From positions 247,252-311,251 of the forward strand of contig CP129477.1 in NCBI GenBank assembly GCA_030583825.1: a stretch of DNA of 64,000 bases. The letters run 5' to 3'. This document shows, piece by piece, positions 6,961 to 14,399 of the stretch; positions within the stretch are counted from its first letter, which is position 1, and every line of letters begins with the position of its first letter. Origin of the DNA: Candidatus Dojkabacteria bacterium. GTDB lineage: Bacteria > Patescibacteriota > Dojkabacteria > GCA-002793355. The position numbers were made by a program, and so were the translations under genes. The notes below the pieces were generated by a model that did no database searches, was not told where the DNA came from, and was given only the letters and a program-made list of their open reading frames with translations.

Positions 6961-7033
6961 GGTGGCTGTAGCTCAGGGGTAGAGCACCTGTCTGTGGAAC
7001 AGGATGTCGTGGGTTCGAAACCCATCAGCCACC
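6961..7033 (+). tRNA. tRNA-His (anticodon GTG) with a genome-encoded G-1
   Basis: Cloverleaf folded by hand. Acceptor GTGGCTG/CAGCCAC, with an extra 5' G pairing discriminator C73. D stem GCTC/GAGC. Anticodon stem CCTGT/ACAGG with loop CTGTGGA (U33, anticodon GUG). T arm GTGGG-TTCGAAA-CCCAT. CCA is not fully encoded. Confidence 0.85.
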
Positions 7034-7386
7034 CATTTTGGGATTTTTAGACAACAAAATTGTCATTTCTTCTTTACTGGTCGGTATTTTCTGAGGTTCT
7101 AAGGTTTGTATAGCCTTCTCAAATTTAGGTTTTGCTTTCTTAATTATTTCAAGCGGTTTATCAACTTCTATTTGAATTTGTAAATCCTTAATAACAATAT
7201 TTGCTCCAAGTTGTAACAGTATCTCATTCTTAATAGGTAAATCTCCCTTTTCAAATCTGTCTTTAGCTTCTTTTGCAAACTTAAATGACTTCTTAGCTTT
7301 CTCAGTCCATTCTGAATCGTCAGCTTCTTACTAACTTTATCCAATTTGTCTTTTTGTTGTTCAGCTTTAACCTTCTTAACACTCAT
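7025..7386 (-). pseudogene. Frameshifted small gene relic. A Lys/Glu-rich helical protein of about 125 aa if one frameshift is repaired.
   Basis: The ATG frame (MSVKKVKAEQQKDKLDKVSKKL) continues in another frame (ADDSEWTEKAKKSFKFAKEAKDRFEKGDLPIKNEILLQLGANIVIKDLQIQIEVDKPLEIIKK...) that has no start of its own. The stop codon lies inside the tRNA-His 3' end. Confidence 0.35.
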
Positions 7387-7411
7387 ATTTATACTTATAT
7401 ATTTTTTACAA

Positions 7412-10400
7412 TTATTGTGATTTTTCTATAATTGCTATCTCCTCGGGTGTTAGTTCATAAATCTTATAAACTCTTTGGTCAATTTGCTTACCTAAATTAC
7501 TAATTTGACTCTGTAAATTCCTCAATTCATTCTGTTTTGACTTAAACCAATTGAAAAGTTCTTCTGTCTTATCAAGTGTCATTTTTATTTTCTTTTGTTC
7601 TATAATCTCAACCAATTCATTCCAACCCATATCAATCAATTCACCTTTGATGGAAAACTTCCCATCAAAATGTAAATAGTTATTAAGAAACGATAATGAT
7701 TGAATATTTAACCCCTCATACAGCTCAATAGCTTTTTCTATTTGTTTATAAAGTAATGCTAAGTCTTGCTGTATATCTTTTGTAGGAATATTTATAGGTA
7801 TCTTTGAAAGGTTAACACTTTTGACCTCTGGGAAGACTCTTCCTTTTTCAGGAACTAAAAATCTATAAACAAAACCTATCAAGGTTGAATTTAATATTGT
7901 GGCTAATGATTCTAGGCTGATGCCTTCAGTTTTTAGGGTTAAATTATAAACATTGTTTAAGTTTAATCTACCTTGTACATCTACGGCACAAATAATCCTA
8001 TCCGCTGTTTGTCTAATTACTATCTTTTTCTGAGAGAAATCAAGGGAATTTCTCGGTTCAGCAAGCCATTCACCATAAGCAAGCCATCTACTGGAATCAG
8101 ATATGAAAAACTGCTTAATATCTCCGCCAATTATATACTTTTGGTAAGAGTCATCTTTTTTATCAATCCCATCGTAAATTCTCTTTCTTACAATGTCCTC
8201 ATCTTGAGCTGGTTTACCTTTTCCTTTCTGGTAGGGTTTTATTCCTACTGTTGGCTTTGCGACTTCATCTAATCTAACTGCTTTTGAAAAAATTTTATCA
8301 ATTATCTTTATTGAATTTTCATCATAGTCTAGATTAAACCCATTTGATATATTTTTCCTCCATGTATCCGAATTAGCTATACTTCTTTCTTGATTTATAA
8401 ATGATTCTAATTGTTTAATACTTCTAGTCTGTATTTCATAATGTTTTATAACTGATGACTTTTGACATACAAGAATTGATGTTTCTGCTGTTACTTCTTG
8501 AAATGCTTGATATTTTAGTAACTCAACTATAATAAGCTTGTTTTCAAGTAGAAGTTGTCGGATTTTTTCAAAATAGTGCATTGCAAGCCATGTTGAGGGA
8601 ACTATGAAACCAATGTATCCATTCTCCTTCACTAACATTAGTGACTTCTCAATGAATGCTATGTATGTTTCAAATTGATACTCTGTATGTTTATAATTCT
8701 CAGATATATACTTCTTCTCATTTGGTTTTAATTCAGCTCCCCATGGAGGGTTTCCAATAATTACATCAAACCCGCCGTCCTGCATAATATCCTTAAATTC
8801 AGCATTCCAGTTGAAAGCCTTGTTACCAGCAATTTCAGGGTCATCAATTAGTGAGTTACCACACTTAATATTCTTATCTAAATTCTGCAAAGGCTCACTG
8901 CTTCTAGCTGTCTTTAACCATAGTGCTAACTTAGTTATTTCAACACTTTCTTGATTCAGGTCAACACCGTATAGATTATTCAAAAGAATAGATTTATTGT
9001 TTTCAGCAGGGTTATAGTCAAAGAGGGTTTGTGACTCTCCTTTTGCCTGTTTCTCCGCAATTAAAGCGTCATACCTTGCTTTATACTCGTTTCTAAGAAA
9101 TGAATGGGCTTGATTTAAGAAAGCACCGCTACCACAAGCAGGGTCAAGTATCTTAATTGTGCTTAATTTGTCAGGGTATTCTTCTAAATATTTGCCTACA
9201 GTATTTTCTACAATGTATCGGGTTATGTATTCAGGAGTGTAGAATATCCCATCCTTTTTTCTTCTACCTTTCTTTTCAACTGATTTATCTACAGTTCCAA
9301 TAACAACTTTATCTCCTGATTCTGTAAGCAAGTTCCCACCTTGTTCAAGCTCAAGATGGATATTCTCTTTAATAGTCTCTAAATCGCTAATACTTTGCTC
9401 AAAAATATGACCTAAAATGTTTACATTCAAATCGGTTTCAAAGTCATACTCTGCAAGGTGCATTAAATGACTCCAAAAATCATCTTTAATTGATAGATTA
9501 TCCAGTAAATCATCAAAGGCAAATAACCCTCCATTGTAAGCATTTATAGGCGGTTTAACTCTGTTGTTTCCTTTATCAATTGCAATGAATAAACCCTTAA
9601 ATTCAGTCCATACTCTTTCGTCACTTGGAGAAAGTGAATTGATGGCTCTATCGTAGGTATTCTTAACGATATTTAGGGGGAGTAACGAGCTTGTATCTTC
9701 ACAAAACAAAGTGAATATAAATCTATCAAGTAACTTCTGGGTTTTCTCAAGTAATAATACTTTGTTTACAGTTGGGTTGTTTTGAGATAAATGATTAAGC
9801 AATCCCAAACGAACCTCTTTATATTCAGAATAGAACTTTTTAGTGATGTCTTGTTCTGCCTCAGTCGTGTCTTTGGCTAAAACATCAATAATGCTTTCCT
9901 TCTCTTTAGATATAAGGTTTTCTTGTGAGAGTAGGAAATAAAATCTTTTTAGTTCGTTTTCTTGAATTAAATCAATAACATCAAATTTTTCATAATACTC
10001 TTGAGTTTTATGCTTGTTATAAAGTCTAATCTCTTTGAAATTTGAAACTATAATCCAATTACAACCATCGTATTTAGTAGCGTATAAATAAGCCTGTTCA
10101 ATTGGTGTTAGCTTCTCAGAACCTCTATTTTGCCTTTTATCAAGCTGAGTTTTTGCATCTTTTAACTCAATTACCGCTTTAGTTAATTTTGTTTCTTTAC
10201 TAAACCAACCTAAGCTACCATCAGGCTCTTTACTATCGTTTTCAATTCTAGGGTGCTGTATGAGGGTCCATTCTTCATTCCCTGTGGTTACATCGCTATA
10301 ACCTAAAATAGCCTCAAAAAAGGTGCTTAAAAACTTCCCTTGCACACTTTTTTCCTTTGTCTTTTCAAGGTCACTATCTTTAAGGGCTTTTTGCCAACCT

Positions 10401-10495
10401 TCAAGAAGTTTCTTTGCAATTTCTAGCCTTTCAGCGTTAGGAAACTCAAAAGAGTGCATCTTTTGCTGTAGTAGCTTTTTGTTTATTAAATTCAT
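7412..10495 (-). CDS. Type IIG restriction-modification enzyme (MmeI/Eco57I-like): a fused PD-(D/E)xK endonuclease, gamma-class N6-adenine methyltransferase and target-recognition domain.
   Basis: The N-terminal nuclease motif EPDGSLGW...IELKDAK. MTase motif I (ILDPACGSGAFL) and motif IV (IIGNPPWG). A C-terminal TaqI-like specificity region. 1027 aa. Confidence 0.75.
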   Translation of the reverse strand: MNLINKKLLQQKMHSFEFPNAERLEIAKKLLEGWQKALKDSDLEKTKEKSVQGKFLSTFFEAILGYSDVTTGNEEWTLIQHPRIENDSKEPDGSLGWFSKETKLTKAVIELKDAKTQLDKRQNRGSEKLTPIEQAYLYATKYDGCNWIIVSNFKEIRLYNKHKTQEYYEKFDVIDLIQENELKRFYFLLSQENLISKEKESIIDVLAKDTTEAEQDITKKFYSEYKEVRLGLLNHLSQNNPTVNKVLLLEKTQKLLDRFIFTLFCEDTSSLLPLNIVKNTYDRAINSLSPSDERVWTEFKGLFIAIDKGNNRVKPPINAYNGGLFAFDDLLDNLSIKDDFWSHLMHLAEYDFETDLNVNILGHIFEQSISDLETIKENIHLELEQGGNLLTESGDKVVIGTVDKSVEKKGRRKKDGIFYTPEYITRYIVENTVGKYLEEYPDKLSTIKILDPACGSGAFLNQAHSFLRNEYKARYDALIAEKQAKGESQTLFDYNPAENNKSILLNNLYGVDLNQESVEITKLALWLKTARSSEPLQNLDKNIKCGNSLIDDPEIAGNKAFNWNAEFKDIMQDGGFDVIIGNPPWGAELKPNEKKYISENYKHTEYQFETYIAFIEKSLMLVKENGYIGFIVPSTWLAMHYFEKIRQLLLENKLIIVELLKYQAFQEVTAETSILVCQKSSVIKHYEIQTRSIKQLESFINQERSIANSDTWRKNISNGFNLDYDENSIKIIDKIFSKAVRLDEVAKPTVGIKPYQKGKGKPAQDEDIVRKRIYDGIDKKDDSYQKYIIGGDIKQFFISDSSRWLAYGEWLAEPRNSLDFSQKKIVIRQTADRIICAVDVQGRLNLNNVYNLTLKTEGISLESLATILNSTLIGFVYRFLVPEKGRVFPEVKSVNLSKIPINIPTKDIQQDLALLYKQIEKAIELYEGLNIQSLSFLNNYLHFDGKFSIKGELIDMGWNELVEIIEQKKIKMTLDKTEELFNWFKSKQNELRNLQSQISNLGKQIDQRVYKIYELTPEEIAIIEKSQ

Positions 10496-10517
10496 GTTCT
10501 AATCCTTATATTTATTG

Positions 10518-12269
10518 TTAAATACTCTCAAAGTAATTCCTTATACTTTGTGATAATAGCTTTTTTCTTTGAGTTAAAAATTCTGAATAGTTTAACTCGT
10601 AAAACTTATACGGTAGGGCATGATTCTTTAATACAGTTTCTAAATCAGTCCTACTGTATTGTTCAAATTCCTTAAAGTAATCCATTGGTGAGTTATCAGA
10701 AATTACAATGTTTGTTTTGTAGTCAAGATAAAGATAGTTCGCTACTTGATTCTGTTCTGTCTGTTCAACAATACCGATACCATTCAAATAATTCTTTGGG
10801 AATATATGGTGTTTATCCAAGCGAGCTTTCTTAACTGTAATTACAGGGTCAAACAGGTCTGATATTTTCTTAGTAGAAAATAGTAGGTCGACATTATTTC
10901 TAATCTGTGAAGCTATAAATACCAGCCATTGAGGATTCTTTGAATAAGATGATGTCAGCAATGCAGGCATCGTAATTTCCCAAAAGTCATTTGTTATTTC
11001 TGATTGTATTCTGCTATCCAATAGAGAAATAAACTCATCACCATTTTTTGCGTTTCTAATTAAAGCTAAATCGCTTTCAAAGTAGCTTTCTGATGAACCT
11101 GAATATCTTGATTTTAATGCTGACATTAAAAACCATCTTGAAACTATTCTTTCAAGCTTATGAAATTCAATATTAAACCTGTATTTGCCAATTAAGTAGA
11201 AGGCGTAAGAATAGAAGAAATTTGTTCTTGAGGTAATTAAATCACTATGCTTAAACCCTAACGACTGAATAAGATTTATATAATCGTGCCAAGTAGTATT
11301 ATCAAGTCCATTGGAGACATACTCTTCAAGCTCATTAAATCGCTTTTGTTTTAGTTCTTCAATAAATTCTCTTGTTTCAAAATCTCTACCTCGTAGAAGC
11401 GAGTAAACATCGCTCATTCTACCTCTGTTAAAACCATATCCAACTATAGCTCTAAGTATTTCTCCTGGTTTAACATCAATGAGATGATTAAATGATGAGT
11501 ACTGTAAACCCTGAGAATTTGGATTATTGCTTTGCATTGAGAAGTCCTCAATCTTCTTGCGTCCACTTTCCCAAAATACAGATAATAGGGTCAAAACAAA
11601 ATCAGATTGTTTTAGTACAACTCCTTTGCTGTTCACCCGAACAAAGATACTAGCAACCGTTTCTTCATCAACATTTTCTGCTATCTCTAAAATCGTAAAA
11701 TCATAAGACAGAATTGACCTTAAATGTGTAATGTTTTGAGAGATTATTTCTTCTTGTTCTTGTGTAGTGTCCTTATTAGCTTTTAACCTTTGAATAAACT
11801 CATTTATAAAGCGATACTCGCTAAAATCATTTTGAAACAAAAGGCTAATATCTGTAATGTATTCAACATCTCTATCAGTTGCGACATTGGAAACTTCAAA
11901 CTTCTCTAATAATGGATTAAAAGCTATTTTAATACGCTTTTCTTTATAATTTGCATCAATAATCGGAATCCCTTTTATTGTGGCAAATAGAGCGGTAAGT
12001 CTTTGTTGACCATCAATAATCAAGCTTTTTGCGTTACTTTCCTTTTTATCAGTGCCAATATCTTTTCTGTTATTGTCATTCACGTTCTCCCAAAAGAGAA
12101 GATAACCAACGGGATAACCTCTATAGATTGAGTCAAACAAATCTCTAACCTTGGTTGTATCCCACACGAAAGGACGTTGAATATCAGGTAAGGCTATCTT
12201 ACCGTGGTCAATATCGTTTATCAGTGTTTGAATCGGATATTGCGTAGTCTTAAAAATTGTTTTACTCAT
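10518..12269 (-). CDS. GmrSD-family type IV (modification-dependent) restriction endonuclease-like protein with DUF262 and DUF1524 domains
   Basis: DUF262 motifs (IQRPFVWD, IIDGQQRLTALF) and the DUF1524 His-Me finger (DKHHIFPKNYL). It lies 22 bp upstream of the type IIG gene on the same strand. Confidence 0.75.
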   Translation of the reverse strand: MSKTIFKTTQYPIQTLINDIDHGKIALPDIQRPFVWDTTKVRDLFDSIYRGYPVGYLLFWENVNDNNRKDIGTDKKESNAKSLIIDGQQRLTALFATIKGIPIIDANYKEKRIKIAFNPLLEKFEVSNVATDRDVEYITDISLLFQNDFSEYRFINEFIQRLKANKDTTQEQEEIISQNITHLRSILSYDFTILEIAENVDEETVASIFVRVNSKGVVLKQSDFVLTLLSVFWESGRKKIEDFSMQSNNPNSQGLQYSSFNHLIDVKPGEILRAIVGYGFNRGRMSDVYSLLRGRDFETREFIEELKQKRFNELEEYVSNGLDNTTWHDYINLIQSLGFKHSDLITSRTNFFYSYAFYLIGKYRFNIEFHKLERIVSRWFLMSALKSRYSGSSESYFESDLALIRNAKNGDEFISLLDSRIQSEITNDFWEITMPALLTSSYSKNPQWLVFIASQIRNNVDLLFSTKKISDLFDPVITVKKARLDKHHIFPKNYLNGIGIVEQTEQNQVANYLYLDYKTNIVISDNSPMDYFKEFEQYSRTDLETVLKNHALPYKFYELNYSEFLTQRKKLLSQSIRNYFESI

Positions 12270-12303
12270 AGTGTCTTATACTTATTTTGGTTCTAATTAG
12301 TTA

Positions 12304-12477
12304 CTATACCTTTGATTTTTCAATCAAAGCTTCAATATCTGATTTTTTAATCATATATTTTTTCCCAACTCTAAAGGCTTTAAGCTTTCCCTGTTTAATC
12401 CAACGGTAAATAGTCATATAAACGACTTTCAGCATTTCCGCCACTTCCTCAATTGTGTAGTATTTTTCTTCTTCCAT
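12304..12477 (-). CDS. Excisionase/AlpA-family helix-turn-helix DNA-binding protein (57 aa). Not in the ORF track.
   Basis: Manual translation gives MEEEKYYTIEEVAEMLKVVYMTIYRWIKQGKLKAFRVGKKYMIKKSDIEALIEKSKV. The pattern is the classic Xis/MerR-superfamily HTH. It lies 34 bp upstream of the DUF262 gene on the same strand. Confidence 0.65.
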   Translation of the reverse strand: MEEEKYYTIEEVAEMLKVVYMTIYRWIKQGKLKAFRVGKKYMIKKSDIEALIEKSKV

Positions 12478-12562
12478 TATTTATATTGTTTTGATTTGTT
12501 TAACATTATTTTACTTTTCAAGTATAATTCATTGTAAATAAAAATTAAAGATAAGTATAAAT

Positions 12563-13369
12563 ATGAGAAAAATATCTGAATTTATAACTAGTCCACTGGT
12601 GTTCAAAATCCTCATTGTATTAGTAATTATCCTAGCAGTAATAGCCTCTATATTCATTTATGAAAATCCAATTCATCCCTTAACTAGTCTGCTCAATTCA
12701 AACTATTTTGTCGCTTTAGTAACTGGTATTGCTGGAGCTGTAGCATTTTTAATATATTTTAAGCAGAAAGCTGACACTAAGCGTGATGCGGCTAAAACTA
12801 TCCTTGCTGAAATTACTAATTCAGAAAAAACAATCCAAGAAGTTAAGAATATTAAGAAGTTCTCAGGATATATGAATTTAGACCCTGACCCTTTGAAGTT
12901 TTACTTAGGCAATTTTAGCTGGAATCAGTATAAGTACCTTTTTATTGGAGATTTTGATTCGTACGAGTGGGAAAAGATAAACCAATATTTCTCACAGTGT
13001 GGTACTTTCAATGAAGCCATCAAAAATATTGCTAATTTATTGCCACAAAACATTGAATATAGGATGCAATTTCTTCAACAAGAACTAGCCAAAATAGCAA
13101 GTGAACAAGCAGATGAGGTAGCAAAACTTGAGAAACCTGATGGCAAAAATGATAAAACAAGACAAGAAAAAATCAAAGAGATAAGTGAAAAGTATGAGCA
13201 AAAGGGTAAGGATTTTGTTTTTGGATATATAGAAGCAGAAAAGACATCTCTAAAGTATGTGTATACACCTGCCAATGCATATGAACCATTGAATAGGGAA
13301 CTTGATAAAATTGATACTGAAATTAGTAAATCAAGTATTGGGAAAAAACTAGTTAAATTAGCTCGCTAG
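12563..13369 (+). CDS. Membrane protein with two N-terminal TM helices and a C-terminal coiled-coil domain. Unknown function.
   Basis: TM1 near residues 12-33 and TM2 near 49-67, followed by a charged helical region (QFLQQELAKIASEQADEVAKLEK...). It is transcribed divergently from the HTH-GmrSD-IIG operon and has its own TATAAT box. Confidence 0.5.
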   Translation: MRKISEFITSPLVFKILIVLVIILAVIASIFIYENPIHPLTSLLNSNYFVALVTGIAGAVAFLIYFKQKADTKRDAAKTILAEITNSEKTIQEVKNIKKFSGYMNLDPDPLKFYLGNFSWNQYKYLFIGDFDSYEWEKINQYFSQCGTFNEAIKNIANLLPQNIEYRMQFLQQELAKIASEQADEVAKLEKPDGKNDKTRQEKIKEISEKYEQKGKDFVFGYIEAEKTSLKYVYTPANAYEPLNRELDKIDTEISKSSIGKKLVKLAR

Positions 13370-13425
13370 ATTAAGGTAGTGGGTCATCATTGCGTTTCTA
13401 ATTTCACGCCACAATCCACCCCAAT

Positions 13426-13804
13426 TTAGTCTTTCTGCCGATTGAATATACTATCAAAGGGTTTCATTAGGGAATATTGGAGCATTCCATCTCTCAAAAA
13501 GAGGTTCTGACGTGTCAGTTTTATAATCTCTCTTTTTTCATCATGTTCAGAACCTAGAAAAAGCTCATACGAACGTGAAGCGAGCTCTAATAGCGTAGAT
13601 GCCGTTATATAATAGTCTTCATCTGCTTGCTCTAAGCGAGAAAGCTTATCTCTAAAATCCTGTTGTTCTGCTCTATATTTTTTATTAAATTTGTCATATT
13701 CTTCCTGAGTAATCCCCTATAAAACGTGCAAGTTCATGCCCACTGGCTTCAGTTTTTTCAACTATATAATCAAGAATTTTTCCAGATGTCTTTTCAATAG
13801 CCAT
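13426..13804 (-). pseudogene. Frameshifted gene relic. It encodes an HTH-like N-terminus plus a coiled-coil domain, about 125 aa if repaired.
   Basis: Frame 1 reads MAIEKTSGKILDYIVEKTEASGHELARFIGDYSGRI*. The continuation in another frame reads TQEEYDKFNKKYRAEQQDFRDKLSRLEQADEDYYITASTLLELASRSYELFLGSEHDEKREIIKLTRQNLFLRDGMLQYSLMKPFD. A single indel is implied. Confidence 0.35.
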
Positions 13805-13963
13805 AAGTAATTGTAGCAAATAAAGTTCCTAGTTAATTAGGAACCATACGGTGAATTCATTTTTTATTAAGATAGTATTAGTTCTTTGCATTTCTTAAAA
13901 ATTTTATTTAATATTCTTAACACATACAAAAAATAATTAACCTCAAACGCATTACTTCATTAA

Positions 13964-14308
13964 ATGAAAGACTACTCAAAATATCTGAATAATAAATCTC
14001 CAGACGTTGCTTATATTTTGAATGAGCTTTTTGTAATTCTTGATAAGATTACAGCTAAAGACTACGAAGTAGAGGAAAAGCAAACCTCGCTGCATATCGT
14101 AAAAAGCTCTGCTTTTCTCGGTGTTCATTTTCTCAAAGACAAACTACGATTAAATATAGTGCTTAACCACGTAGCTACCTCGGATAAATTGCATAAATCT
14201 GAGCAGGTCTCTAAAAACCGATTTCATAACGAAATTGACTTGAGAACAGTCAAAGATTTATCTGATATAGAGATGCTCATTAAAGAAGCATATTTTCTAA
14301 AGACTTAG
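13964..14308 (+). CDS. Hypothetical protein (114 aa). Faint resemblance to a DUF5655-type small domain.
   Basis: ORF with normal composition. The family assignment is from memory only and weak. Confidence 0.4.
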   Translation: MKDYSKYLNNKSPDVAYILNELFVILDKITAKDYEVEEKQTSLHIVKSSAFLGVHFLKDKLRLNIVLNHVATSDKLHKSEQVSKNRFHNEIDLRTVKDLSDIEMLIKEAYFLKT

Positions 14309-14399
14309 ACAGATGTTTTCAAGTTTATTCATGTTTATTTTTAGCTCTATTCTTCGGTTCAGGAACTGGTCTAATAAGTGACCCCATACAAAGATTTCA

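What the first reader, a model, noticed from the sequence alone, without database searches (positions are those of the whole stretch)
10518..12269. DUF262/DUF1524 nuclease placed immediately upstream of a type IIG RM gene
GmrSD-family enzymes normally cut modified DNA. The downstream enzyme in the same operon makes m6A on host DNA. Either the DUF262 protein's specificity excludes the host mark, so the two complement each other against modified and unmodified phage, or the proteins interact functionally, as DUF262/DUF1524 does in SspE or BrxU-type contexts. The 22-bp gap and same strand argue for co-transcription.
Basis: partly seen in the sequence, partly recalled or inferred. Interest (0 to 1): 0.55.

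Follow-up and report, generated by a model that had tools for sequence, protein, structure and literature searches.

The report
BrxU-like nuclease gene before restriction enzyme
A gene for a BrxU/GmrSD-type nuclease, a kind that in studied cases cuts phage DNA carrying modified bases, sits just in front of a combined restriction-methylation enzyme on a small defence island of a Dojkabacteria genome; this is an ordinary, already described way of stacking two complementary anti-phage defences.

Summary
ORF 10518-12269 (-) encodes a 583-aa GmrSD-family protein with intact QR, RDLFDS, DGQQR and FxxxN motifs. It has a helical linker and a C-terminal His-Me finger (DKHHIFP...NQVAN...N). This protein's DUF1524 match is below Pfam's threshold. 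The call rests on 11 of 29 relatives matching, invariant motifs, and a full-length fold match to BrxU.

Twenty-two bases downstream, with no terminator, promoter or hairpin in the gap, lies an intact MmeI/Eco57I-type IIG enzyme (PD...ELK, NPPW). The cluster lies on a low-GC island beside tRNA-His.

The pairing is not fixed:
- Of 11 close relatives with readable context, 5 precede an Eco57I-family fused methylase, 3 join type I systems, 1 faces C5 methylases, and 2 have no adjacent RM.
- Two relatives of the IIG enzyme lack the nuclease gene.
- Among 80 species-level relatives the usual partner is type I RM, as published.
- Fusions to Mrr_N, AlbA_2 and RAMA domains fit a role in reading modified DNA.

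Best reading: an independent, co-regulated type IV-like nuclease that complements the m6A-based enzyme, as BrxU complements BREX. This is a new member of a known kind, of low interest.

The parts
12304..12477 (-). 57-aa HTH_17 (MerR/excisionase-type) DNA-binding protein. It is the first gene of the operon and the presumed regulator.
   Evidence: Pfam HTH_17 E 2.5e-19. It is 89% identical in L087 and 57% identical in L088, in both cases directly before the DUF262 ortholog. An HTH_17 gene also occupies this position in L093. L086 has an HTH_3 gene there instead.
10518..12269 (-). 583-aa GmrSD-family (BrxU/HEC-05-like) protein: DUF262 NTPase domain, helical linker, His-Me finger nuclease.
   Evidence: Pfam GmrSD_N E 4.6e-32. 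PADLOC HEC-05 E 3.4e-40, plus a full-length HEC-05 model at 2.6e-16. The PDB profile hit is BrxU 7P9K, E 1.9e-19. AF2 model has pLDDT 83 and pTM 0.78. Top Foldseek hit is BrxU, E 8.9e-14.
11589..12233 (-). DUF262 / ParB-Srx-like NTPase domain (residues 13-227). Motifs: Q31-R32, R42-D-L-F-D-S47, D86-G-Q-Q-R90 (nt 12000-12014), F209-x3-N213.
   Evidence: (invariant columns). ParB N-terminal domains appear among the fold matches.
10590..10829 (-). C-terminal His-Me finger (divergent DUF1524), about residues 481-560. Motifs: D484-K-H487-H488-I-F-P491 (nt 10797-10817), N507-Q508-x2-N511, N520.
   Evidence: GmrSD_C is below threshold here, E 0.031. 11 of 29 relatives hit it, best E 1.9e-7. Residues are invariant. 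Translation checked. A strand at 486-488 is followed by short helices in the model.
10496..10517 (-). 22-bp intergenic gap with an AAGGA ribosome-binding site for the IIG gene.
   Evidence: Sequence read. No promoter, terminator or hairpin. The equivalent gaps are 20 bp in L086, 21 bp in L096 and 1 bp in L093.
7412..10495 (-). 1027-aa single-chain type IIG restriction-modification enzyme. N-terminal PD-(D/E)XK nuclease (D92...E110-L-K112), helical spacer, gamma-class N6-adenine methyltransferase (DPACGSGAF; NPPW at nt 8741-8752), TaqI_C-type target recognition domain.
   Evidence: Pfam and PADLOC matches. Motifs are conserved in 4 homologs. NPPW is the only DNA-methylase motif found in the 64-kb window.
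6962..7034 (+). tRNA-His bordering the low-GC island (about 7035-14350). Context only, not part of the operon.
   Evidence: ARAGORN and Rfam. GC is 0.31-0.34 inside the island against about 0.39-0.42 outside.

Best explanation
The ORF encodes a single-chain GmrSD-family enzyme of the BrxU/HEC-05 type. It is the middle gene of a three-gene operon: HTH_17, then the DUF262-HNH nuclease, then the type IIG enzyme. The operon lies on a horizontally acquired low-GC island next to tRNA-His in a Candidatus Dojkabacteria genome.

Shown here: all catalytic motifs of the NTPase domain and the His-Me finger are intact and invariant across the family. The fold matches BrxU end to end. The downstream enzyme has intact nuclease and N6-adenine methylase motifs. 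The genes are packed 22 bp apart with no detectable terminator.

Inferred by homology with BrxU, GmrSD and TgvAB: nucleotide binding and hydrolysis in the DUF262 domain licenses the HNH domain to cut DNA whose bases carry phage-type modifications, most likely modified cytosines. Such DNA escapes the type IIG enzyme. The IIG enzyme in turn cuts unmodified DNA that lacks its m6A mark. The host's adenine methylation is not a substrate, so the two can coexist.

The two proteins act independently and are only co-regulated, probably by the small HTH protein. The nuclease (with its HTH in some relatives) behaves as a portable module that recombines in front of, or inside, adenine-methylating RM systems of many types.
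For: Identity:
- Pfam GmrSD_N E 4.6e-32.
- PADLOC HEC-05 E 3.4e-40, and a full-length HEC-05 model at 2.6e-16. HEC-05 is BrxU according to bioRxiv 10.1101/2024.01.29.577857.
- The only PDB sequence hit is BrxU, and BrxU is the top fold hit at probability 1.00 over the full length.
- QR, RDLFDS, DGQQR, FxxxN, HH-FP, NQ-AN and N are invariant in 29 homologs.
- GmrSD_C is detected in 11 of 29 relatives.

Modification reading: relatives carry N-terminal Mrr_N domains (4 of 8 N-terminally extended proteins scanned), and one has C-terminal AlbA_2, RAMA and DUF4268.

Independence and modularity:
- Orthologs at 66-94% identity sit before an MmeI_N/TaqI_C IIG enzyme (window, L086, L096), an ISP-like fused methylase (L093), a split Eco57I methylase (L094), and type I operons (L081, L088).
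- One sits behind a type I operon (L085), one faces two C5 methylases (L084), and two have no adjacent RM (L089, L095).
- IIG homologs L090 and L091 are about 85% identical over the N-terminal 600 aa and lack the nuclease.

Precedent:
- BrxU gives BREX-independent, complementary protection and cuts 5mC, 5hmC and glc-5hmC DNA but not unmodified DNA (PMC8565348).
- GmrSD-like genes are known to be embedded in type I RM, BREX and Hma systems.

Co-transcription: 22-bp gap, ribosome-binding site, no terminator or promoter hit.
Against: - No member of this roughly 585-aa subfamily has been tested. Identity to BrxU is only about 17% in the structural alignment.
- The acidic residue of BrxU's DHIYP motif is His here (HHIFP).
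- GmrSD relatives are functionally diverse. SspE responds to phosphorothioate status rather than to phage hypermodification.
- The conserved position inside type I operons, often with 4-bp gene overlaps, could reflect more than co-regulation.
- Mrr recognises both m6A and m5C DNA (my own knowledge of that family), so the Mrr_N fusions do not fix the target base.
- Co-transcription is inferred from sequence only, and sigma-70 scans may not suit CPR promoters.
- Only 64 kb of the genome was seen, so host cytosine methylases cannot be excluded.
Confidence: 0.6

Rival explanations
1. Functional coupling. The DUF262-HNH protein is an accessory or guard of the adenine-methylating RM enzyme. It might be held latent by the RM enzyme and released when a phage anti-restriction protein inhibits it, as PrrC is with EcoprrI. 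Alternatively it might read the RM system's own methylation status, as SspE does for phosphorothioation.
For: The family is strikingly tied to RM systems. 20 of 37 species-level loci with at least 5 kb on both flanks have type I components within 10 kb. 9 loci are strictly embedded, often with 4-bp overlaps to hsdS. Type III-like (L003), type ISP (L028) and DISARM-like (L043) partners also occur. 8 of 11 close relatives abut an RM system in the same orientation.
Against: Partners are swapped among near-identical nucleases and span unrelated RM architectures, which is hard to reconcile with a specific protein-protein interface. Two close relatives have no adjacent RM (L089, L095), and one sits by C5 methylases (L084). 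The IIG lineage works without it (L090, L091). BrxU/HEC-05 and HEC-06 defend on their own when cloned alone. The N-terminal extensions I suspected to be HsdS fusions carried Mrr_N (4 of 8) or no recognisable Pfam domain; none carried Methylase_S.
Confidence: 0.15
2. A GmrSD-fold enzyme with a different trigger. It is not a modification-dependent restriction enzyme. It could be a nucleotide-gated nuclease activated by some other infection cue (abortive infection), or an enzyme acting on non-cytosine modifications such as modified adenines or deazaguanines.
For: Identity to characterised members is low (17%). The HH variant replaces the DH motif. The DUF262/ParB-like fold serves many functions, seen in weak SspE, NsnA and DndB matches. 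An 80%-identical ortholog coexists with two adjacent C5 methylases (L084), so 5mC in those sequence contexts at least must be tolerated.
Against: All BrxU catalytic motifs, including RLFDS, are conserved. Fusions to Mrr_N, RAMA and AlbA_2 point to DNA-modification reading. Every tested single-chain DUF262-DUF1524 enzyme except SspE is modification-dependent.
Confidence: 0.15
3. Mere neighbours. The two genes lie together only because defence genes cluster on islands. They are transcribed and regulated separately, and their juxtaposition has no selective meaning.
For: The pairing is absent in 2 of 4 relatives of the IIG lineage examined (L090, L091; present in L086 and L096) and in 6 of 11 nuclease relatives. 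The intergenic bases are not conserved between the window and L086.
Against: Gaps of 22, 20, 21 and 1 bp in four loci, always same strand, with the nuclease always first. No terminator or hairpin. At least three independent junctions with Eco57I-family enzymes exist in one small clade. Published data put embedded defence genes co-oriented with their host system in 96.7% of cases.
Confidence: 0.1

Closest known systems
BrxU (= PADLOC HEC-05), the GmrSD-family type IV enzyme embedded in the BREX locus of E. fergusonii pEFER (PDB 7P9K/7P9M)
   Same: Nearly the same length (583 against 587 aa) and three-part architecture. It is the only PDB sequence hit (E 1.9e-19) and the best fold hit (E 8.9e-14). 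QR, RLFDS and DGQQR motifs are shared. It too sits in the same operon as an Eco57I/MmeI-related m6A methyltransferase (PglX).
   Different: About 17% identity. The nuclease motif is HHIFP instead of DHIYP. The partner is a self-contained type IIG enzyme rather than a six-gene BREX system. The nuclease gene leads the operon instead of being embedded. The host is a CPR bacterium. There are no functional data.
GmrSD (Eco94GmrSD / EcoCT GmrSD) and V. cholerae TgvAB
   Same: DUF262 plus DUF1524 His-Me finger type IV enzymes. TgvAB is embedded in a type I RM operon, as most relatives of the window protein are.
   Different: TgvAB needs two proteins. GmrSD lacks the RLFDS motif. The sequence relationship to the window protein is more distant than BrxU's: no PDB or PADLOC hit for them outranks HEC-05.
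RloF and other 'R-linked ORFs' in type I RM loci (Campylobacter jejuni)
   Same: A DUF262 protein located between hsdS and hsdR. That is the position taken by the species-level relatives of this protein.
   Different: In the window the partner is type IIG, not type I. RloF itself was not compared by sequence here.
SspE (phosphorothioate-sensing DUF262-HNH nicking enzyme)
   Same: Same domain classes. Weak PADLOC hit (3.9e-6) and weak fold match to the SspE C-terminal domain.
   Different: No sspABCD genes were seen among the neighbours examined (no dedicated search was made). Similarity is far weaker than to BrxU. SspE depends functionally on its partner modification system, which the partner swapping seen here argues against.
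MmeI-family type IIG/IIL restriction-modification enzymes (for the downstream gene)
   Same: MmeI_N PD-ExK nuclease, helical spacer, gamma N6A methylase with NPPW, C-terminal specificity domain. N-terminal 600 aa are conserved and the specificity domain is hypervariable among relatives.
   Different: The specificity domain is of the TaqI_C type rather than MmeI_TRD. The recognition sequence is unknown.

Membership tests
GmrSD family, BrxU/HEC-05 type | N-terminal DUF262 (ParB/Srx-like) domain with QR, DGQQR and FxxxN motifs, plus RLFDS in the BrxU type | tested here: met
   Pfam GmrSD_N E 4.6e-32. Q31 and R32, R42-DLFD-S47, D86-GQQ-R90, and F209 and N213 are invariant or nearly so in 29 homologs. 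DGQQR translated.
GmrSD family, BrxU/HEC-05 type | Alpha-helical linker between the two catalytic domains | tested here: met
   The AF2 model is all-helical from about 234 to 457, with pLDDT mostly 80-97. The alignment to BrxU spans the full length.
GmrSD family, BrxU/HEC-05 type | C-terminal DUF1524 His-Me finger nuclease with (D/E)H..P, N, N | tested here: met
   Met, but weakly. Pfam GmrSD_C is only E 0.031 and 14.6 bits, below the cut-off of 23, for this protein. 11 of 29 relatives hit it, best 1.9e-7. H487, H488, F490, P491, N507, Q508, N511 and N520 are invariant. The acidic residue before the catalytic His is His.
GmrSD family, BrxU/HEC-05 type | Overall fold and sequence similarity to a solved member | tested here: met
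   BrxU 7P9K: profile E 1.9e-19; Foldseek E 8.9e-14, probability 1.00, about 17% identity. TM is only 0.36, expected given the extended intertwined-dimer crystal form.
GmrSD family, BrxU/HEC-05 type | NTP-dependent cleavage of modified but not unmodified DNA, and phage defence | not testable with these tools
   Only indirect support: fusions of relatives to Mrr_N, AlbA_2 and RAMA, and literature on BrxU, HEC-06 and TgvAB.
Type IIG (MmeI/Eco57I-like) RM enzyme, for the downstream gene | Single chain with PD-(D/E)XK nuclease, gamma-class N6A methylase (motif I plus NPPW/Y) and a target recognition domain | tested here: met
   MmeI_N (34.8 bits), MmeI_Mtase, Eco57I (E 1.4e-41), N6_Mtase and TaqI_C. 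PADLOC REase_MTase_IIG E 1.9e-106; MmeI_hel scored 25.4 bits, just under its 27-bit cut-off. D92, E110, K112, DPACGSGAF and NPPW are conserved.
Obligate two-component system (nuclease plus IIG as one functional unit, in the SspE-SspABCD or TgvA-TgvB manner) | The two genes co-occur consistently across relatives | tested here: not met
   5 of 11 close nuclease relatives have an Eco57I-family partner, only 3 of them of the same lineage. 3 of 11 have type I partners and 3 of 11 have other or no RM. None of 80 species-level relatives has an adjacent MmeI-type enzyme. 2 of 4 relatives of the IIG lineage examined (L090, L091) lack the nuclease.
Operon (co-transcription of HTH, nuclease and IIG genes) | Same strand, short gaps, no internal terminator or promoter | tested here: inconclusive
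   Gaps are 34 and 22 bp. There are no consensus promoter, terminator or hairpin hits in the 22-bp gap. There is no transcript evidence, and the promoter model may not fit CPR bacteria.

The most novel reading that the evidence does not exclude
The nuclease (with its HTH_17 partner in four of the close relatives) is not a free-standing type IV enzyme. Instead it would be a portable front module whose activity is conditioned by the adenine-methylating RM enzyme it is spliced to. It might sense failure of that enzyme or phage anti-restriction, or read the enzyme's m6A pattern through a ParB-like clamp. This would explain why the family is found almost only next to NTP-dependent, adenine-methylating systems of types I, IIG, ISP and III, DISARM, BREX and Hma.
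Probability: 0.08. Interest if true: 0.6.

Novelty: new member of a known kind. Interest (0 to 1): 0.2.

Why it matters
If the best reading is right, this locus adds little new. It is one more case of layered defence, with a restriction enzyme for unmodified DNA and a type IV-like nuclease for modified DNA, already shown for BrxU with BREX and TgvAB with type I RM.

It has modest value in three respects. First, it extends that logic to single-chain type IIG enzymes and to the small genomes of CPR bacteria (Dojkabacteria, about 1.1-Mb contig), where each defence gene is costly. Second, it identifies a large, tightly conserved but untested roughly 585-aa BrxU-like subfamily. That subfamily has 484 cluster representatives at E up to 1e-30, an HH-type His-Me motif, and recurrent Mrr_N, AlbA_2 and RAMA fusions. 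Third, the close relatives give a clean natural experiment in partner swapping that could be used to test whether embedded nucleases are truly autonomous.

Tried and rejected
1. I looked for a specific, conserved DUF262-IIG pairing. tblastn of the window IIG enzyme against 80 species-level loci hit 5 loci and none was an adjacent MmeI-type enzyme. The apparently adjacent hit in L059 has no Pfam methylase domain and was a false lead.

2. I suspected that long relatives with 300-460-aa N-terminal extensions were HsdS-nuclease fusions, which would have been Rosetta-stone evidence for coupling to type I RM. Pfam found Mrr_N in 4 of the 8 and no domain in the other 4; none had Methylase_S.

3. I searched for an att-type direct repeat of the tRNA-His 3' end at the far border of the island. 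Only short AT-rich chance repeats turned up, and no integrase was noted among the island's ORFs.

4. I checked whether the 72-aa ORF at 7168-7386 is a remnant of the 341-355-aa gene that follows the IIG gene in L086, L090 and L091. There is no similarity.

5. I looked for hairpins or operators in the gap and in the promoter region. The only find was a 74%-complementary AT-rich repeat over the HTH stop codon. It is not conserved and was not pursued.

6. An Rfam scan of the island returned only the tRNA.

7. The metagenome scan with the IIG protein returned only 2 loci, so the reciprocal statistic is small.

Full report
**What is in the sequence**

The window has a low-GC stretch (0.31-0.34, against about 0.39-0.42 around it) from about 7,000 to 14,000. 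It begins right after a tRNA-His gene at 6962-7034. Three tightly packed genes lie on its minus strand:
- a 57-aa ORF at 12304-12477, which is an HTH_17 DNA-binding protein (E 2.5e-19);
- the reported ORF at 10518-12269 (583 aa);
- after a 22-bp gap (10496-10517) holding an AAGGA ribosome-binding site, a 1027-aa ORF at 7412-10495.

Consensus scans found no promoter-like or terminator-like site in the gap and no inverted repeat there. The HTH gene was missed.

**The nuclease**

Pfam assigns only GmrSD_N/DUF262 at threshold (residues 13-227, E 4.6e-32). The C-terminal GmrSD_C/DUF1524 match is below threshold for this protein: E 0.031, 14.6 bits against a cut-off of 23. It is nonetheless a real, divergent DUF1524:
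- In an alignment of 29 homologs, H487, H488, F490, P491, N507, Q508, N511 and N520 are invariant (DKHHIFP confirmed).
- 11 of the 29 members match PF07510 individually, best E 1.9e-7.
- The N-terminal QR, RDLFDS, DGQQR and FxxxN motifs are invariant or nearly so.

PADLOC's best models are HEC-05 (E 3.4e-40, and a second HEC-05 model aligned end to end at 2.6e-16). HEC-05 is BrxU according to Payne et al. (bioRxiv 10.1101/2024.01.29.577857). A family profile finds only BrxU in the PDB (7P9K, E 1.9e-19). An AlphaFold model (pLDDT 83, pTM 0.78) has BrxU as its top Foldseek match over the whole length (E 8.9e-14, probability 1.00, about 17% identity). Weak matches follow to the SspE C-terminal domain and to ParB N-terminal domains.

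The protein is therefore a BrxU-type GmrSD-family enzyme. It has one motif variant: HHIFP where BrxU has DHIYP.

**The partner**

The 1027-aa protein matches MmeI_N, MmeI_Mtase, Eco57I, N6_Mtase and TaqI_C at threshold and the MmeI helical spacer just below it (25.4 against 27 bits). It also matches PADLOC REase_MTase_IIG (E 1.9e-106). The PD...ELK nuclease motif (D92, E110, K112), motif I (DPACGSGAF) and NPPW are intact and conserved in four homologs. Among those homologs the first 600 residues are 79-90% identical in all but one block, while the specificity region falls to 20-64%. That is the usual picture of specificity swapping. NPPW here is the only DNA-methylase motif found in the 64-kb window.

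**Origin and family**

The identical protein is annotated in NCBI as a DUF262 protein of a Candidatus Dojkabacteria MAG, on a 1.09-Mb contig. The family is large and tightly conserved. Full-length relatives at 40-47% identity occur across bacterial phyla and methanogenic archaea. An exhaustive search of 1.84 billion cluster representatives gave 9,400 hits at E up to 0.001 and 484 at E up to 1e-30.

**Is the pairing conserved? Close relatives**

I read the neighbourhoods of 11 close relatives (66-94% identity; one further contig ends too early).

| Locus | Nuclease identity | Neighbourhood |
|---|---|---|
| L086 | 92% | 20 bp upstream of the same IIG lineage (69% identical) |
| L096 | 66% | 21 bp upstream of the same IIG lineage (53% over the first 680 aa, different specificity domain) |
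| L093 | 82% | 1 bp upstream of a different, type ISP-like fused methylase |
| L094 | 80% | Precedes a split Eco57I-type methylase |
| L081 | 80% | Leads a type I operon |
| L088 | 77% | Leads a type I operon |
| L085 | 71% | Trails a type I operon |
| L084 | 80% | Faces two C5 methylases and an HNH gene |
| L089 | 72% | No adjacent RM |
| L095 | 71% | No adjacent RM |
| L087 | 94% | Contig ends just after the gene |

Two homologs of the IIG lineage (L090 and L091, 59-61% overall, about 85% over the N-terminal 600 aa) have no DUF262 gene within 6 kb. The HTH_17 gene travels with the nuclease in the window, L087 (89% identical), L088 (57%) and L093, whatever follows. In L086 an HTH_3 gene takes its place.

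**Is the pairing conserved? Species-level relatives**

Among 80 species-level relatives (39-47% identity; one, L001, is a closer Dojkabacteria fragment at 84%), same-strand genes lay within 150 bp upstream in 40 loci and downstream in 40. The upstream one is HsdS in 13 of 40. The downstream one is HsdR-like in about 10 of 40.

Of the 37 loci with at least 5 kb on both sides, 20 have a type I component within 10 kb and 13 have two or more. Nine loci are strictly embedded. Other partners include:
- a type ISP enzyme (L028);
- a DISARM-like methylase plus helicase (L043);
- a type III-like pair (L003);
- a Meiothermus plasmid type I operon that also embeds DarTG-like and PARIS-like genes (L092).

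MmeI-type enzymes occur in only two of these loci, 3.6-4.4 kb away and not adjacent.

So the nuclease-IIG junction is recurrent within the Dojkabacteria-level clade: 5 of 11 relatives, about three independent junctions. It is not a family-wide or obligate pairing. The general rule is association with adenine-methylating RM systems, mostly type I. This was already reported by Machnicka et al. 2015 (PMC4619093) and Payne et al., and shown experimentally for TgvAB.

**Mechanism**

BrxU cuts DNA containing 5mC, 5hmC or glc-5hmC, but not unmodified DNA, in an NTP-dependent cycle. D474 and H475 of its HNH motif are essential. It protects independently of, and complementarily to, the m6A-writing BREX system in which it is embedded (PMC8565348; further substrates in PMC12409352 and PMC13390438).

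All corresponding motifs are intact here. Extra support for a modification-reading role comes from domain fusions in relatives: Mrr_N at the N-terminus in 4 of 8 extended proteins, and AlbA_2, RAMA and DUF4268 at the C-terminus of another.

I therefore favour, at about 0.6, an autonomous type IV-like nuclease that is co-expressed with the IIG enzyme, probably under the HTH protein. The IIG enzyme deals with unmodified DNA lacking its m6A mark, and the nuclease deals with phage DNA whose modified bases defeat the IIG enzyme. Host m6A is not a substrate.

The steps shown are motif integrity, fold, gene packing and partner swapping. The steps inferred are substrate specificity, independence and co-transcription.

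**Rivals**

- A guard or accessory role tied to the RM partner (0.15) is suggested by the very consistent embedding and the 4-bp overlaps. It is weakened by partner swapping, by RM-less relatives and by published autonomy of BrxU and HEC-06.
- A different trigger or substrate (0.15) remains possible given 17% identity to BrxU, the HH motif and coexistence with C5 methylases in L084.
- Pure neighbourhood without co-transcription (0.1) is unlikely given four loci with gaps of 1-22 bp and constant gene order.

**Verdict**

Interest is low (0.2). The main residual value is that this large BrxU-like subfamily is untested, and that its natural partner swapping offers a way to test the autonomy of embedded nucleases.

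Noticed in passing
window 12304-12477 (-): A 57-aa HTH_17 gene leads the operon and was not part of the finding. It stays with the nuclease gene in L087 (89% identical), L088 (57%) and L093, even though the downstream RM system differs. In L086 an unrelated HTH_3 gene replaces it. It may be a C-protein-like controller of the cassette.
   Followed up: partly
window 6962-7034 (+) and about 7035-14350: tRNA-His sits exactly at the edge of the low-GC (0.31-0.34) island that carries the operon. I found no integrase gene in the island and no att-like repeat of the tRNA end.
   Followed up: partly
window 7412-8700 (-), i.e. residues about 600-1027 of the IIG enzyme: The specificity half of the IIG enzyme is only 20-64% identical to homologs whose first 600 residues are 79-90% identical in all but one block. 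The GNPPW/GNPPY motif is followed by a variable insertion. This is consistent with frequent specificity-domain swapping in this lineage.
   Followed up: partly
window 12563-13369 (+) and 13964-14308 (+): A 268-aa protein with an N-terminal hydrophobic, probably membrane-spanning stretch and a coiled, charged C-terminus is transcribed divergently from the operon. It has no family match beyond a weak capH hit. A 114-aa DUF5655 protein also lies on the island. Their functions and any link to defence are unknown.
   Followed up: no
P0122, P0124, P0136, P0187 (N-terminal extensions); P0131 (C-terminal extension): Relatives of the nuclease are fused to Mrr_N winged-helix domains, or to AlbA_2 plus RAMA plus DUF4268. 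A common roughly 750-aa subfamily carries a C-terminal extension of about 165 aa, with AlbA_2 in P0085.
   Followed up: partly
L092 (Meiothermus taiwanensis plasmid pMtWR-220, 4977-15788): One type I RM operon embeds four extra modules between hsdM and hsdR: the DUF262 nuclease, hsdS, a DUF4433 plus macro-domain pair (DarTG-like), and an AAA ATPase plus DUF4276 pair (PARIS-like).
   Followed up: no
L084 3138-8335: An 80%-identical ortholog of the nuclease lies convergent with two C5 DNA methylases and an MTaX1/HNH_2 gene. This implies that the family tolerates at least some host 5mC.
   Followed up: no
L003 36-6675 and L043 3-11749: The nuclease gene is embedded in a type III-like pair (N6_N4_Mtase upstream, ResIII protein downstream). 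In another genome it follows a DISARM-like pair: a 1514-aa Eco57I-type methylase and an 1801-aa helicase with an MZB domain.
   Followed up: partly
window 12295-12344: An imperfect 23-nt inverted repeat (74% complementary, 4-nt loop) overlaps the stop codon of the HTH gene, between it and the nuclease gene. It is AT-rich and may be chance.
   Followed up: no
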